Below are positions 27,853 through 29,769 of a DNA stretch of 64,000 nucleotides, piece after piece. Both the position numbers and the translations under genes were made by a program. The DNA is from a candidate division WOR-1 bacterium RIFOXYB2_FULL_45_9 (GTDB lineage Bacteria > Margulisbacteria > WOR-1 > O2-12-FULL-45-9 > XYB2-FULL-48-7). Below the pieces are notes generated by a model. The model had not been told where the DNA came from. It ran no database searches and was given only the letters and a program-made list of their open reading frames with translations. The stretch spans positions 1,575,470-1,639,469 of the forward strand of contig MEUD01000001.1 in the NCBI GenBank assembly GCA_001771575.1, given 5' to 3'. Within the stretch, counting starts at the first letter, position 1; every line of letters begins with the position of its first letter.

Positions 27853-27964
27853 CCGGGGATAGGGGAAGCGAAATGCGCGTCCATACTGAACTTGTATTCT
27901 AATCCAGTGCCATTCTTTGGGTGTCTGCCTCACTCAACACTGGGACAAACCGCTCAATAAGCCA

Positions 27965-27995
27965 GGAAGCCGCGGCGATATTACCGCTAGTTTCC
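27965..27995. repeat. 31-nt REP-like palindromic repeat, copy 1 (GGAAGCCGCGGCGATATTACCGCTAGTTTCC)
   Basis: Matches copies at 41121-41151 and, in reverse complement, at 62947-62977, with 2-4 mismatches. Outer stem GGAA(A/G)CC…GGTTTCC. Confidence 0.65.
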
Positions 27996-28051
27996 TGGGT
28001 TGCTTTTCCCCTAAACCGTGAGTAAAATGTGGGCAGAGAAGGGGAGGATAT

Positions 28052-28348
28052 ATGGATAAAATAGAAAATGCTCAAGAGAATGTTTTAAATTTGTTAAGGA
28101 AAGAGTGCGATAATTGGGTTGATTTAAATGAACTGTTTAATGAAGTACCGAATGCAAAAAATGATTTTACTAATGTTGATGATTTTTTTAAGAACGTAAT
28201 TGTTCCTTTGCAGCTTAAAAATAAAATTGATGTAGATAGTAAAGTGAAAGTTCCACTCTGTCCTCAGCCAAGTCAAAGTCCTCAAAATGCGCCTATAATC
28301 AGGAATCTCAGCAGTGTTGAAATTATTCAAGTTAGAATTAAACAATAA
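28052..28348 (+). CDS. hypothetical protein (98 aa), AT-rich
   Basis: ORF in a low-GC islet with GGAGG RBS (aagGGGAGGatatATG). No homology recognised. Confidence 0.4.
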   Translation: MDKIENAQENVLNLLRKECDNWVDLNELFNEVPNAKNDFTNVDDFFKNVIVPLQLKNKIDVDSKVKVPLCPQPSQSPQNAPIIRNLSSVEIIQVRIKQ

Positions 28349-28363
28349 ATCCATAGTTTTAGG

Positions 28364-28870
28364 TTAAATAAAACCTATCCTTGTGGGTTTTTCCGGTTGA
28401 GTAAGCATTTGATGAATCGCCTCGAAGATTAATTGAATATCCGAGCTGTTCTTGCCGGTTTTTTGTTCCAGTTCATTAATCTTGGCAATTAATTCCTTGT
28501 GTTGAGCTAGAATGTTCCGCAATTTGGTGAATATCCTCATGATCTGAATATTAACCTGGACAGCTTGTTTACTTCGTAGAACAGAAGAAAGCATCGCAAC
28601 CCCGTTTTCGGTAAAAACATTGATATTTTTATGGTATTTTAAAGGAGAGGATATCACAATTTGTGATATCCTCTGTATTTCCTGTTTTGACAGCGAAAAC
28701 ATGAAGTCATTTGGGAACCTTTCCTGATTTCTACTTACTGCTTGGTTTAAGGTGCCTGTTGGGATTCCGTATAATTCTGCTAAATCCCGGTCTAACATAA
28801 CTTTTTGGCCACGAATCATGTAGATTTTGTTTTGGATTGCTTCTAAAGGGATCAATTCATTATTGGTCAT
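28364..28870 (-). CDS. ORF6N domain protein (phage antirepressor-like DNA-binding N-terminal domain)
   Basis: N-terminus [42 protein letters not shown] matches the ORF6N (KilA-N-related) consensus almost residue for residue. AT-rich. Confidence 0.8.
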   Translation of the reverse strand: [168 protein letters not shown]

Positions 28871-28902
28871 AATTTTGCCTTTTGGAAATAAGATGCTAAG
28901 AA

Positions 28903-29769
28903 CTAAGCAATATTATTGCCAAGTGCAGTTGCGGAGCAGATTCGTGGAATACCGGCATAATCATTGATAATTATAATATCTGTATAATTAGGGTTAATAC
29001 TGAAAAACTGACGAATTGCCGCTGATTGTCCAAACCCAAACTCAAACATTAACTTTCCTCCAGGATTAAGATGAGCGGGGGCGTCTTTGATGAGACGGCG
29101 GATATAGGCTAAGCCGTCAGCCCCGCCGTCAAGCGCTGAAATAGGCTCCCAATCTTTAACTTCAGGCTCCAATCCTGTTAAATCAGCGGTCGGGATGTAG
29201 GGAGGGTTCGAGACGATCAAGTCGACTTTTTCTTTCAAAGGAGCGAGAAGATCCCCTTCAAGAAAAGTGATTTGAGCGTTGTGAGCCGCGGCGTTTTCTT
29301 TGGCTAATTCCAAAGCAGAAGGGGAGAGATCGATTGCGGTAACTCTGGCAGTTGGTAATTCCTTGGCTAACGTAATGGCGATACACCCACTACCAGTCCC
29401 AACATCAGCAACAATGATAGGTGAATAGGGGATTAGGTGATTAGTGAATTTGGGATTGGAGATTATTTTTTCCACTAACAGTTCCGTTTCCGGTCGGGGG
29501 ATCAATACCCGTCGGTCGACTTTTATATCTATACCCATGAACGGTTGATAGCCGACAATGTACGCGGTCGGTTCGTGAGCCAGGCGTCTAGCGATCGAGG
29601 ATTTAAAGTTGGCCAGCAGTTTTTCCTGAATAACCTGATCGCCTTGCGATATTAATTTGGTTGTTGGTAGTTGGAGGTTGTTGGTTAATAAGACTTCCGT
29701 TTCCAATCGGGGATCTTCAAAGCTTGAGAGTTGGGTGATCCCCCAGGCGAGCGCCTCGGCGATCGTCAT
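28903..29769 (-). CDS. prmC: release factor glutamine N5-methyltransferase PrmC/HemK
   Basis: Motif I ADVGTGSGCIAI and NPPY (VSNPPYIP). Directly downstream of prfA with a 4-nt overlap. The last about 50 codons are AT-rich. Confidence 0.9.
   Translation of the reverse strand: MTIAEALAWGITQLSSFEDPRLETEVLLTNNLQLPTTKLISQGDQVIQEKLLANFKSSIARRLAHEPTAYIVGYQPFMGIDIKVDRRVLIPRPETELLVEKIISNPKFTNHLIPYSPIIVADVGTGSGCIAITLAKELPTARVTAIDLSPSALELAKENAAAHNAQITFLEGDLLAPLKEKVDLIVSNPPYIPTADLTGLEPEVKDWEPISALDGGADGLAYIRRLIKDAPAHLNPGGKLMFEFGFGQSAAIRQFFSINPNYTDIIIINDYAGIPRICSATALGNNIA

What the first reader, a model, noticed from the sequence alone, without database searches (positions are those of the whole stretch)
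27900..29060. ORF6N (phage antirepressor-like) islet whose low-GC sequence replaces the 3' end of prmC
Seen in sequence: from about 27900 to about 29060 the GC content drops sharply. The islet holds a 98-aa hypothetical gene and a gene whose N-terminus ([42 protein letters not shown]) is a near-consensus ORF6N domain.

The AT-rich tract continues for about 50 codons into the C-terminal coding region of prmC (…FFSINPNYTDIIIINDYAGIPRICSATALGNNIA). The left border carries two tandem hairpins at the nnrE stop and REP-like copy 1.

Established knowledge: ORF6N/KilA-N domains are typical of phage and other mobile-element regulatory proteins. Islands that integrate into the 3' end of a gene usually carry a replacement 3' end.

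Inference: this is a remnant of a small phage-derived or satellite-like element that integrated into the prmC 3' end and now supplies its C-terminus.
Basis: partly seen in the sequence, partly recalled or inferred. Interest (0 to 1): 0.5.

Follow-up and report, generated by a model that had tools for sequence, protein, structure and literature searches.

The report
ORF6N gene cassette capping prmC
A 660-base foreign cassette carrying one DNA-binding gene (ORF6N, a candidate anti-phage family) sits in the end of the essential gene prmC and supplies a substitute gene end, and its protein appears to recognise a palindrome buried in its own coding sequence.

Summary
GC falls to 0.32-0.38 between about 28040 and 29025. 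The tract holds a 98-aa ORF and an ORF6N gene and runs 120 nt (40 codons) into prmC.

The tract is two separate things.

1. Positions 28364-29025 (- strand) form a compact cassette without an integrase: a substitute prmC 3' end, a 32-nt spacer and the ORF6N gene.
   - A second lineage carries the same cassette (L008). Its near-isogenic partner (L011) has the native prmC end.
   - In L008 the displaced native last 51 nt of prmC still lie behind ORF6N.
   - The cassette is much less diverged between the two lineages than prfA and prmC are.
2. The 98-aa gene, its upstream block and a REP-like hairpin are resident. A sister lineage has them without ORF6N.

A phage or satellite origin is not supported. 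There is no integrase, relatives in virus collections are almost absent, and about 80 homologues in other phyla are lone genes among housekeeping genes. The protein matches the PADLOC candidate defence family PDC-S05.

The new result is a 29-nt perfect palindrome inside the ORF6N coding sequence. It is conserved family-wide with compensatory changes. Its base pairs 4-5 co-vary almost one-to-one with residues 40 and 43 of the predicted recognition helix, which suggests a self-encoded operator. Solo copies persist behind prmC in relatives that lack ORF6N.

The parts
28903..29769 (-). prmC (288 aa), release-factor glutamine methyltransferase. Its body is native and its last 40 codons are foreign.
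   Evidence: Pfam finds PrmC_N and MTS domains. The protein aligns end to end with E. coli HemK (1t43, E=3.8e-35) through residue 277. The closest relatives are Margulisiibacteriota PrmCs at 66-74% identity.
28903..29025 (-). Substitute (foreign) prmC 3' end: 40 codons plus the stop, GC 0.36. This is the left part of the cassette.
   Evidence: All relatives lose homology at 29022-29026. The tail is shared only with P0002/L008. It keeps the invariant residues D270 and R276. It is 92.7% identical to the L008 copy, whereas the prmC body is 69-86% identical.
28970..28997 (-). Promoter-like TTAACC-16-TATAAT inside the substitute end, about 100 nt upstream of the ORF6N start codon.
   Evidence: It is the best consensus match in the region, 10 of 12. 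The number of such sites in the region is not above chance, so this is only a lead.
28871..28902 (-). 32-nt spacer between the prmC stop and the ORF6N ATG. The terminator hairpin that follows native prmC in relatives is absent here.
   Evidence: The spacer is 95-98% identical to L008. L003, L006 and L011 carry a hairpin after prmC (GGAACCTGATCCGCCGCGGCGGATCGGTTCC in L003 and L011; GGAACCTGAGAATGAATTCTCGGTTCC in L006), which the window and L008 lack.
28364..28870 (-). ORF6N gene (168 aa): an N-terminal winged-helix-like DNA-binding domain followed by a long C-terminal helix.
   Evidence: Matches are Pfam ORF6N E=2.7e-31, PADLOC PDC-S05 model PDLC04856 E=6.7e-57 over the full length, and PHROG 4792 'anti-repressor' E=7.5e-29. 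The AF2 model has pLDDT 76.6, helices 27-34 and 38-47, and a long helix 101-137. The gene is 91% identical to the L008 copy.
28730..28759 (-). Codons 38-47, the predicted recognition helix. Residues 39, 40 and 43 co-vary with the palindrome.
   Evidence: See the AF2 model and the covariation scans.
28646..28674 (.). Palindrome P, a perfect 14+1+14 palindrome inside the ORF6N coding sequence (codons 66-75, [10 protein letters not shown]). It is the probable operator of the encoded protein.
   Evidence: It is unique in the window, with 0 expected by chance. As a DNA hairpin it folds at -11.9 kcal/mol, z = -6.1. Across 87 homologues 87% of cells pair, against 65% in shuffles, and 13 of 16 pairs show compensatory changes.
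28052..28348 (+). Resident, fast-evolving 98-aa orphan gene, convergent with ORF6N. It is not part of the cassette.
   Evidence: It is homologous to the 92-aa gene of L003 at the same position. It has no family in Pfam, NCBIfam, PHROGs or PADLOC. Among 1.84 billion representatives it finds only itself and one weak hit.
27990..28036 (+). Conserved block upstream of the 98-aa gene (TTGCTT-17-TAAAAT at 28000-28028).
   Evidence: It is 94% identical to L003 7272-7318, upstream of the 92-aa gene. The promoter reading is an inference, because the -35 element matches only 3 of 6.
27964..27995 (+). REP-like hairpin, copy 1 of 3 in the window.
27805..27852 (+). Two tandem perfect hairpins at and just after the nnrE stop.
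27169..27816 (+). nnrE (YjeF_N, 215 aa), the resident right-hand neighbour of the variable region.
   Evidence: Pfam gives E=1.3e-51. The gene is syntenic in L003 and L006.

Best explanation
**What it is.** Positions 28364-29025 (- strand) are a 662-bp single-gene cassette without an integrase, spliced into the 3' end of prmC. It consists of three pieces:
- a 120-nt AT-rich substitute copy of the prmC end, which now encodes PrmC's last 40 residues;
- a 32-nt spacer that lacks the native terminator;
- an ORF6N gene of the PADLOC PDC-S05 candidate-defence family.

**How it spreads (shown).** The cassette is exchanged among related WOR-1/Margulisiibacteriota lineages by homologous recombination through the conserved flanks.

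**How it is expressed and regulated (inferred).**
- It is probably transcribed by read-through from rpmE-prfA-prmC, perhaps helped by a promoter inside the substitute end.
- Its product is a dimeric helix-turn-helix protein. Its recognition helix (residues 38-47) reads base pairs 4-5 on each side of the dyad of a perfect palindrome in the middle of its own coding sequence.
- Bound there, the protein would block elongating RNA polymerase. That gives negative autoregulation independent of whichever host promoter the cassette lands behind.

**What remains open.** How the cassette first enters a new target is unknown. Its cellular role (anti-phage defence) is suggested only by family membership.

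**What does not belong to it.** The 98-aa gene, its upstream block and the REP-like hairpin (27964-28348) are resident DNA.
For: **The prmC end is a mosaic.**
- The tail is shared only with P0002.
- The homology breakpoint lies at 29022-29026 in all relatives.
- L008 and L011 are 99.7% identical up to 119 nt before the stop. The native last 51 nt lie after ORF6N in L008.

**The cassette moved horizontally.**
- Synonymous change is 18 of 132 identical-residue codons in the cassette, against 143 of 395 in prfA and the prmC body (Fisher p=4e-7).
- DNA identity is 90-98% in the cassette, against about 70-80% in the backbone.

**It entered the L008 lineage by homologous recombination.**
- Three of the 16 left-flank mismatches fall in the last 77 nt before the boundary.
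- The right flank is only 90% identical.

**It is not a phage.**

**Family.** PADLOC PDC-S05, E=6.7e-57. One representative of that family (a RhuM-type protein) lowered plating of T7 and T5 about 1000-fold.

**Cassette habit in other phyla.**
- The left neighbour is co-directional in 54 of 71 loci (p=1e-5).
- Direct duplications of 39-140 nt of the target flank the gene, for example at the comM and pepA C-termini.

**The palindrome is the operator.**
- The palindrome is kept in about 90 gene copies with compensatory changes, and 0 of 500 shuffles reach the observed values.
- The class of base pairs 4-5 shares 1.52 bits with residue 43 and 1.27 bits with residue 40. It shares 0.13 bits or less with the variable residues 46-63 that lie between the helix and the palindrome.
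- The code is TG-Q (46 copies), GA-K (21), GC-R (12) and CG-E (11), with 7 exceptions among 97 copies.
- The classes are interspersed in the phylogeny of the C-terminal region: the nearest neighbour belongs to another class in 49 of 97 copies.
- Residue 43 follows the nucleotide, not the encoded residue. Gly72 written GGA goes with K in 21 of 21 copies, and Gly72 written GGC goes with R in 12 of 13.
- Two copies translate the palindrome in another reading frame and still keep Q43.
- The residues encoded by the palindrome lie in a low-confidence loop of the model.
Against: - No binding or expression data exist. The operator and the roadblock are inferred from covariation and geometry only.
- Perfect arms of up to 18 bp are longer than a typical dimer operator. 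G-T pairs are rare. The centre is always A/T-rich. All three features would also suit a DNA hairpin or cruciform.
- Solo palindromes that outlive the gene are not explained by autoregulation alone.
- No full-length PrmC with the substitute tail was found, so its source is unknown. That search was insensitive, though.
- The window itself holds no remnant of the native prmC end.
- The promoter-like site is not above chance.
- The tested PDC-S05 protein carries a RhuM domain, so its phenotype may not transfer to this 168-aa form.
Confidence: 0.7

Rival explanations
1. The tract is the remnant of a phage or satellite that integrated through an integrase into the prmC 3' end, carrying an attP-borne replacement end. 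The rest of the element was later deleted.
For: - The 3' end is replaced in frame, and in L008 the displaced native end lies at the far junction, like attL and attR.
- ORF6N matches PHROG 'anti-repressor' families.
Against: - In L008 the whole insert is about 665 nt, and its distal flank resumes host sequence.
- No integrase or phage gene appears in any instance.
- No IMG/VR relatives were found, and only 5 of 50,697 phage records hold a relative.
- The same lone-gene layout recurs in about 80 loci of other phyla.
- The native remnant is 51 nt while the replacement is 119 nt, so there is no simple att core.
- The window has no att repeat.
Confidence: 0.1
2. There is no element-borne substitute end. 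The AT-rich tail is the genuine prmC end of an unsampled low-GC relative in which ORF6N lies directly behind prmC. A chromosomal fragment was imported by recombination that was homologous on the left (in the conserved GGKLMFEFGFGQ block) and illegitimate on the right.
For: - The tail and ORF6N have the same GC, 0.36-0.37.
- The tail has the same length as the clade's native C-terminus and keeps its NDYAGIPRI motif.
- The left junction sits at the end of the most conserved block.
- The L008 allele did arrive by homologous recombination.
Against: - No PrmC with this tail in a matching low-GC body was found among 120 close PrmCs or in a tail-only search, which was insensitive.
- Right junctions lie within 0-15 nt of the ORF6N stop in the window and in L008, L029, L034, L064 and L090. 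Random illegitimate joins would not be that precise.
- Target duplications flank ORF6N at unrelated genes in other phyla.
Confidence: 0.25
3. The intragenic palindrome is not a protein-binding site. It would instead be a structural nucleic-acid element: a DNA hairpin or cruciform used for recombination or mobility (like attC or REP sites), or an mRNA hairpin.
For: - The arms are perfect Watson-Crick pairs of 11-18 bp with very few G-T pairs.
- The centre is always A/T-rich, CA[A/T]3TG in 82 of 87 copies. Conservative codons such as GTT and CTT are never seen there.
- Solo copies and arrays of different solo copies occur in intergenic DNA.
- No Rfam family covers it.
Against: - Residue-specific covariation links base pairs 4-5 to helix residues 40 and 43. 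The pairings are chemically sensible (R or K with G, Q with T:A, E with C, N with A). The linkage control is clean.
- The palindrome lies in the middle of the gene, 230-290 nt from both cassette boundaries, so it is not the junction site.
- No T-tract follows it on the sense strand.
- The two roles are not mutually exclusive.
Confidence: 0.2
4. The tail diverged in place. It would be native prmC sequence that drifted to low GC because it overlaps the expression signals of a vertically inherited ORF6N gene.
For: - A promoter-like site lies in the tail.
- The tail is homologous to the native one and has the same length.
Against: - L008 and L011 are near-isogenic yet carry completely different tails, and L008 keeps a native remnant.
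- The cassette's synonymous divergence is about 2.7 times lower than the backbone's.
- The sister lineage L003 has a native tail and no ORF6N.
Confidence: 0.03

Closest known systems
Prophage integration into the 3' end of a protein gene with a surrogate end (phage 21 and e14 in E. coli icd; recalled from my own knowledge, not tested here)
   Same: The host gene stays intact because the incoming DNA supplies a diverged in-frame copy of its 3' end. The displaced native end is left at the far junction, as seen in L008.
   Different: The insert is one 168-aa gene, with no integrase and no phage genes. The window has no att core. The replacement (119 nt) and the remnant (51 nt) differ in length. 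The documented spread is by homologous allelic replacement.
PADLOC phage-defence candidate PDC-S05 and RhuM-family proteins
   Same: The protein matches the PDC-S05 models over its full length (E=6.7e-57). The family is a single-gene system. One member protected E. coli against T7, T5 and T4. RhuM genes are enriched beside type I restriction-modification loci.
   Different: The tested member has a RhuM domain, and this protein is the short form. No mechanism has been published, and none of the papers found mentions the intragenic palindrome.
Helix-turn-helix repressor-operator 'immunity' pairs and intragenic roadblock operators (lambdoid repressors; lacO2 within lacZ; from my own knowledge)
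   Same: The site is palindromic, and a recognition helix co-diversifies with it. The contacted base pairs lie about one helical turn apart.
   Different: The operator lies inside the regulator's own coding sequence, so part of the protein is encoded by its own binding site. Changes in the operator can therefore change the protein. No upstream operator or promoter is involved.
ParB/Spo0J with a parS palindrome inside its own gene (from my own knowledge)
   Same: A perfect palindrome bound by the product of the gene that contains it.
   Different: The fold and the role (chromosome partition) are unrelated, and no diversification of the site with the protein is known.
Integrase-less small modules and cassettes (integron cassettes with attC; pdif modules and Xer-dependent elements; from my own knowledge)
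   Same: The units are compact, hold one gene and often lack a promoter. They insert downstream of co-directional genes, form tandem arrays with conserved junctions, and are associated with a hairpin-forming repeat.
   Different: The palindrome is in the middle of the ORF, not at the cassette boundary. No intI or Xer-type site architecture is present. The flanks are duplications of the target, not a fixed recombination site.

Membership tests
Pfam ORF6N (PF10543) | A match to the family model above the curated gathering score | tested here: met
   108.1 bits against a cut-off of 27.8, E=2.7e-31, covering residues 14-97 and profile positions 1-86 of 86.
PADLOC PDC-S05 (candidate single-gene defence system) | A full-length match to a PDC-S05 protein model | tested here: met
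   PDLC04856 gives E=6.7e-57, covering residues 1-161 and profile positions 1-167 of 177. Two further PDC-S05 models also match.
PADLOC PDC-S05 (candidate single-gene defence system) | Confers protection against phage | not testable with these tools
   Only indirect evidence exists. One PDC-S05 representative with a RhuM domain lowered plating of T7 and T5 about 1000-fold.
Prophage or satellite remnant integrated in a gene's 3' end | An in-frame surrogate 3' end supplied by the insert | tested here: met
   
Prophage or satellite remnant integrated in a gene's 3' end | The displaced native 3' end or an att repeat at the distal junction | tested here: inconclusive
   It is present in L008 as a 51-nt remnant. 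It is absent from the window.
Prophage or satellite remnant integrated in a gene's 3' end | An integrase or other phage or satellite genes, or relatives in virus collections | tested here: not met
   No such genes lie within 6 kb. None recurs among 130 neighbours of the homologues. IMG/VR gave 0 relatives, and 5 of 50,697 phage records match.
PrmC/HemK release-factor methyltransferase | PrmC_N and MTS domains, the NPPY motif, and a complete C-terminal part of the fold | tested here: met
   The domains are found and SNPPYIP is present. The protein aligns with E. coli HemK to residue 277 and with 4dzr to residue 281. D270 and R276, inside the foreign tail, are invariant in A1.
Dimeric helix-turn-helix regulator with a cognate palindromic operator | A symmetric site whose bases co-vary with recognition-helix residues | tested here: met
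   Mutual information is 1.52 bits (residue 43) and 1.27 bits (residue 40) with base pairs 4-5, and 0.13 bits or less for the intervening variable residues. 90 of 97 copies follow a one-to-one code, and the signal follows synonymous sites.
Dimeric helix-turn-helix regulator with a cognate palindromic operator | Demonstrated binding and regulation | not testable with these tools
   This needs gel-shift, footprinting and reporter assays.
Integron gene cassette | An attC site at the 3' boundary of the ORF and an intI/attI platform | tested here: not met
   The palindrome lies in the middle of the ORF (codons 66-75). The boundaries carry duplicated target sequence instead. No integrase lies nearby.
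Known RNA families (Rfam 15) | A covariance-model match at the palindrome or in the intergenic region | tested here: not met
   There is no hit at 28646-28674 with E up to 1, and none in five related loci.

The most novel reading that the evidence does not exclude
ORF6N/PDC-S05 genes would be a very large class (more than 8000 clusters at 90% identity) of promoter-independent, self-regulating, integrase-less gene cassettes. Three features would define the class:
- Each gene encodes a helix-turn-helix dimer whose operator is written into its own coding sequence. Recognition helix and site therefore diversify together, following a readable code (Q43-T:A, E43-C:G, R43 or K43-G:C, N40-A, R40-G).
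- The cassettes enter the 3' ends or leaders of housekeeping genes with a long duplication of the target.
- They leave orphan operators behind when the gene is lost.
Probability: 0.35. Interest if true: 0.85.

Novelty: new variant of a known kind. Interest (0 to 1): 0.7.

Why it matters
1. **A clean natural example.** An essential translation gene (prmC) is kept functional by a foreign, horizontally exchanged 3' end that belongs to a one-gene cassette with no recombinase. This is a mode of gene flow that island finders keyed on integrases will miss.
2. **A concrete hypothesis for an uncharacterised family.** This very abundant candidate anti-phage family gets a testable molecular model: a dimeric DNA binder, its exact site, and a residue-to-base recognition code. 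The code could be checked with a handful of gel shifts and used to predict targets.
3. **An unusual coupling of protein and DNA evolution.** An operator embedded in the regulator's own coding sequence regulates the gene independently of any promoter. It also makes a binding site and part of the protein that binds it the same nucleotides. That matters for how mobile genes control their dosage after landing behind arbitrary host promoters.

Tried and rejected
- **att-like repeat.** I looked for a repeat of the prmC 3' end at the left border. Only chance-level matches turned up (family D5, 19 nt at 74%).
- **Possible native remnant.** A weak peptide match lies just after the ORF6N stop on the - strand (28375-28280, E=3). 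I judged it to be chance, because it is antisense to the 98-aa gene, which has a homologue in L003.
- **tRNA or tmRNA target.** None is present in the window.
- **Structured RNA in the prmC-nnrE spacer.** There are no Rfam hits in the window region or in five related loci.
- **Source of the foreign tail.** A protein search with the tail alone returned only a 48-aa fragment of the same gene and missed P0002. It was therefore uninformative.
- **Palindrome as a dispersed repeat in this genome.** There is only one copy in the 64 kb, and no ORF6N paralogue in the window.
- **Palindrome as the cassette junction.** Rejected, because it lies in the middle of the gene.
- **Recombination breakpoint at the palindrome (window versus L008).** Synonymous change is 0.26 per codon before it and 0.15 after it. 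The difference is not significant, so I make no claim.
- **'Flip-flop' inversion of the loop.** CAAATTG and CAATTTG differ only in the central base, so inversion is not needed. Only the TTT/AAA pair hints at it.
- **Fold identification.** There is no significant match to a solved structure. The best hits are Dachshund/Ski winged-helix-like domains at E about 0.4.
- **Literature.** No paper in the library describes the palindrome or a mechanism for ORF6N or PDC-S05.
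Full report
**1. Observation**

The low-GC tract is real. 200-nt windows read 0.315-0.38 from about 28000 to 29000, against 0.45-0.60 on both sides and 0.523 for the whole window. The genes around it are these:

| Gene | Coordinates | Strand |
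|---|---|---|
| nnrE (YjeF_N) | 27169-27816 | + |
| 98-aa ORF | 28052-28348 | + |
| ORF6N gene (Pfam E=2.7e-31) | 28364-28870 | - |
| prmC | 28903-29769 | - |
| prfA | 29766-30827 | - |

- The two hairpins at the nnrE stop are perfect, at 27805-27826 and 27830-27852.
- The 'REP-like copy' is a hairpin at 27964-27995, with two more copies in the window.
- The organism is candidate division WOR-1 (Margulisiibacteriota) bacterium RIFOXYA12_FULL_52_29.
- The region is identical in two independent metagenome assemblies, so it is not an artefact.

**2. Is the prmC end foreign? Yes, and sharply so.**

- PrmC aligns with E. coli HemK to its last strands. The tail is therefore a real PrmC C-terminus and keeps the invariant residues D270 and R276.
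- Among the closest PrmCs only P0002 shares the window's tail. P0001 and P0003-P0006 carry a different consensus for the clade.
- P0002 and P0005 are nearly identical elsewhere yet differ in the tail, and only P0002 is followed by an ORF6N gene.
- At DNA level L008 (P0002) and L011 (P0005) are 99.7% identical over 5.1 kb up to 119 nt before the stop. Then the similarity collapses.
- Directly behind the ORF6N stop, L008 carries TCGC followed by the native last 51 nt of prmC, 90% identical to L011. After that comes the native downstream sequence.
- All relatives lose homology with the window at 29022-29026.

**3. The cassette moves between lineages.**

- Window and L008 are 90-98% identical from the substitute tail to the ORF6N stop, but only about 70-80% identical in prfA and the prmC body.
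- Synonymous change is 18 of 132 codons in the cassette against 143 of 395 in the backbone, p=4e-7.
- In L008 the left flank has three of its 16 mismatches in the last 77 nt before the boundary, and the right flank is only 90% identical to L011. That allele was therefore imported by homologous recombination from a donor about 10% diverged that already carried the cassette.
- The right junctions differ. In the window the cassette abuts the end of the 98-aa gene; in L008 it abuts the native prmC remnant. No remnant survives in the window.

**4. What does not belong to the cassette**

- The 98-aa gene has a homologue in the sister lineage L003 (92 aa, 32% identity, E=1e-7). It lies at the same place, behind the same 94%-conserved upstream block, downstream of a native prmC and without ORF6N.
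- It is otherwise an orphan.
- The region between prmC and nnrE varies in gene content among relatives.

**5. No evidence for a phage remnant**

- No integrase or phage gene lies near any instance.
- IMG/VR gave no relatives. Only five uncultured 'Bacteriophage sp.' records out of 50,697 match, and 25 of 72,556 plasmids.
- In 80 species of many phyla, homologues at 47-63% identity are lone genes or tandem arrays. Their neighbours belong to 148 different, mostly housekeeping, families. None of them lies next to prmC.
- The left neighbour is co-directional in 54 of 71 loci.
- In several loci the gene is flanked by a direct duplication of 39-140 nt of the target. Examples are the comM C-terminus in L090, the pepA C-terminus in L029 and a 137-nt leader in L064. 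The insert is little more than the ORF. The L008 layout is therefore the family's habit, not a peculiarity of prmC.
- The protein matches the PADLOC candidate defence family PDC-S05 over its full length. One RhuM-type member protected E. coli against T7, T5 and T4, and RhuM genes are enriched near type I restriction-modification loci.

**6. The palindrome**

- Inside the ORF6N coding sequence lies a perfect 14+1+14 palindrome at 28646-28674.
- The same element, 27 of 27 identical, stands alone 60-95 nt behind the native prmC stop in relatives without the cassette: L003, L006 and L011. A degenerate second copy follows the remnant in L008.
- Nearly all homologues, including Legionella and Bacteroides plasmid copies, keep an inverted repeat at the same codons with different sequences.
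- On 87 copies, 87% of cells pair, against 65% in shuffles and 30-45% in slid controls. Thirteen of 16 pairs show changes on both sides, and 0 of 500 shuffles reach the observed values.
- In two subfamily members the palindrome is read in another frame.
- The centre is CA[A/T]3TG in 82 of 87 copies.
- In 80 metagenome loci with this palindrome type, 68 copies lie inside ORF6N genes and 12 are solo or lie beside gene fragments. Some solo copies sit in arrays of different types.

**7. What the palindrome is for**

- The AF2 model (pLDDT 76.6) shows a helix-turn-helix (helices 27-34 and 38-47) and a long C-terminal helix. The residues encoded by the palindrome lie in a low-confidence loop.
- An unbiased scan of every half-site position against every residue puts position 4 with residue 43 at the top. 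Next come position 5 with residue 43, positions 4 and 5 with residue 40, and positions 7-8 with residue 39. These residues lie on one face of the second helix.
- The code is nearly one-to-one: TTG-TG-A with Q43, TTG-GA-A with K43 and N40, TTG-GC-A with R43, and TTG-CG-A with E43 and R40. It holds in 90 of 97 copies.
- Three controls support direct readout of the DNA:
  - Variable residues 46-63, which lie between the helix and the palindrome, share 0.13 bits or less with the core class.
  - The classes are interspersed in the C-terminal phylogeny.
  - Residue 43 follows the synonymous third base of Gly72. GGA goes with K in 21 of 21 copies, and GGC goes with R in 12 of 13. The copies read in another frame also keep the match.
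- Tandem paralogues in L044 are 88-97% identical in their 3' parts and junctions but only 44-69% identical across the helix and the palindrome. Twelve of the amino-acid differences between the window and L008 copies fall in codons 14-73, against one in codons 74-158; the last residues also differ.
- The contacted base pairs lie about one helical turn apart, as expected for a dimer.
- I infer that the protein binds the palindrome in its own gene. The most economical function is a transcriptional roadblock. That would give autoregulation that works behind any host promoter, which suits a cassette that has lost the native prmC terminator and usually sits behind co-directional genes. This step is inference. 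A role as a DNA hairpin in recombination is not excluded.

**8. Open points**

- How the cassette first enters a new target, and where the duplicated target comes from.
- Why solo palindromes persist.
- The source of the AT-rich tail. It is 50% identical to the clade's native tail, has the same length, and no full-length PrmC with it was found.
- Whether this short form defends against phage.

**9. Verdict**

The phage or satellite origin, the inclusion of the 98-aa gene and the expected att repeat are not supported.
- Compared with known cases (phage 21 and e14 at icd, from my own knowledge), this is a new variant: a one-gene cassette without an integrase.
- The self-encoded operator is, as far as the searched literature shows, undescribed.

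Noticed in passing
L003 6932-6958; L006 6910-6935; L011 5319-5349; L008 7204-7234: Solo copies of the ORF6N palindrome (the palindrome plus at most 4 nt) lie 60-95 nt behind the native prmC stop in relatives that lack the ORF6N gene. The L003 copy is 27 of 27 identical to the window's intragenic copy, with no similarity in the flanks.
   Followed up: partly
L034 3180-3360; L137 about 880-1050; L139 296-370; L022 3917-3947; L075 1037-1063: In other phyla, solo palindromes of different sequence types occur in intergenic DNA. They are sometimes two or three in a row or just upstream of an ORF6N gene, as if the operator outlives the gene.
   Followed up: partly
L090 1853-1891 / 2431-2469; L029 3844-3911 / 4545-4612; L064 3865-3985 / 4524-4644; L089; L035; L034: ORF6N genes in unrelated phyla are flanked by direct duplications of 39-140 nt of the target: the comM C-terminus, the pepA C-terminus, and a 5' leader. 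The insert is barely larger than the ORF, and no recombinase gene was seen among the ORFs immediately flanking the homologues.
   Followed up: partly
L044 2178-4525: Four ORF6N genes lie in tandem. Their junction spacers are nearly identical and their 3' parts are 88-97% identical, but the region covering the recognition helix and the palindrome is only 44-69% identical.
   Followed up: partly
window 28052-28348 (+) and 28124-28354 (-): The 98-aa gene is a lineage-specific orphan whose upstream block is far better conserved (94%) than its protein (32%). One assembly's gene caller chose the antisense 76-aa ORF instead. The only distant hit is a 1602-aa protein with four matching stretches (P0243, E=3.8e-4).
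   Followed up: partly
window 27964-27995, 41121-41151, 62955-62985: A REP-like hairpin family, GGAAACCGCGGCGATATTGCCGCTGGTTTCC, has three copies in 64 kb. The terminators behind prmC in relatives have a similar GGAACC...GGTTCC theme.
   Followed up: partly
L093 3037-3390; L094; L095 4069-4239: In the closest ORF6N homologues found outside the prmC locus (69-72% identity) the gene is followed within a few bases by a 23S_rRNA_IVP (four-helix-bundle) gene. In L095 the islet is bracketed by two copies of a 70-aa YgaP-like gene.
   Followed up: no
L097 2402-7278: A Margulisiibacteriota contig carries four ORF6N genes within 5 kb, scattered among metK, an MFS transporter, a NERD nuclease gene and comM. 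One of them ends 2 nt before comM.
   Followed up: no
window 27917-27955 versus L006 6984-7022: A 39-nt block (92% identical) lies in the opposite orientation relative to prmC in the two lineages. This points to an inversion or a small mobile block in the prmC-nnrE spacer.
   Followed up: no
window 13877-13899, 14310-14334, 34025-34050: Three other perfect palindromes with arms of 11-13 nt occur in the window. Two are of a TCTCCCCCTT...AAGGGGGAGA type about 430 nt apart.
   Followed up: no
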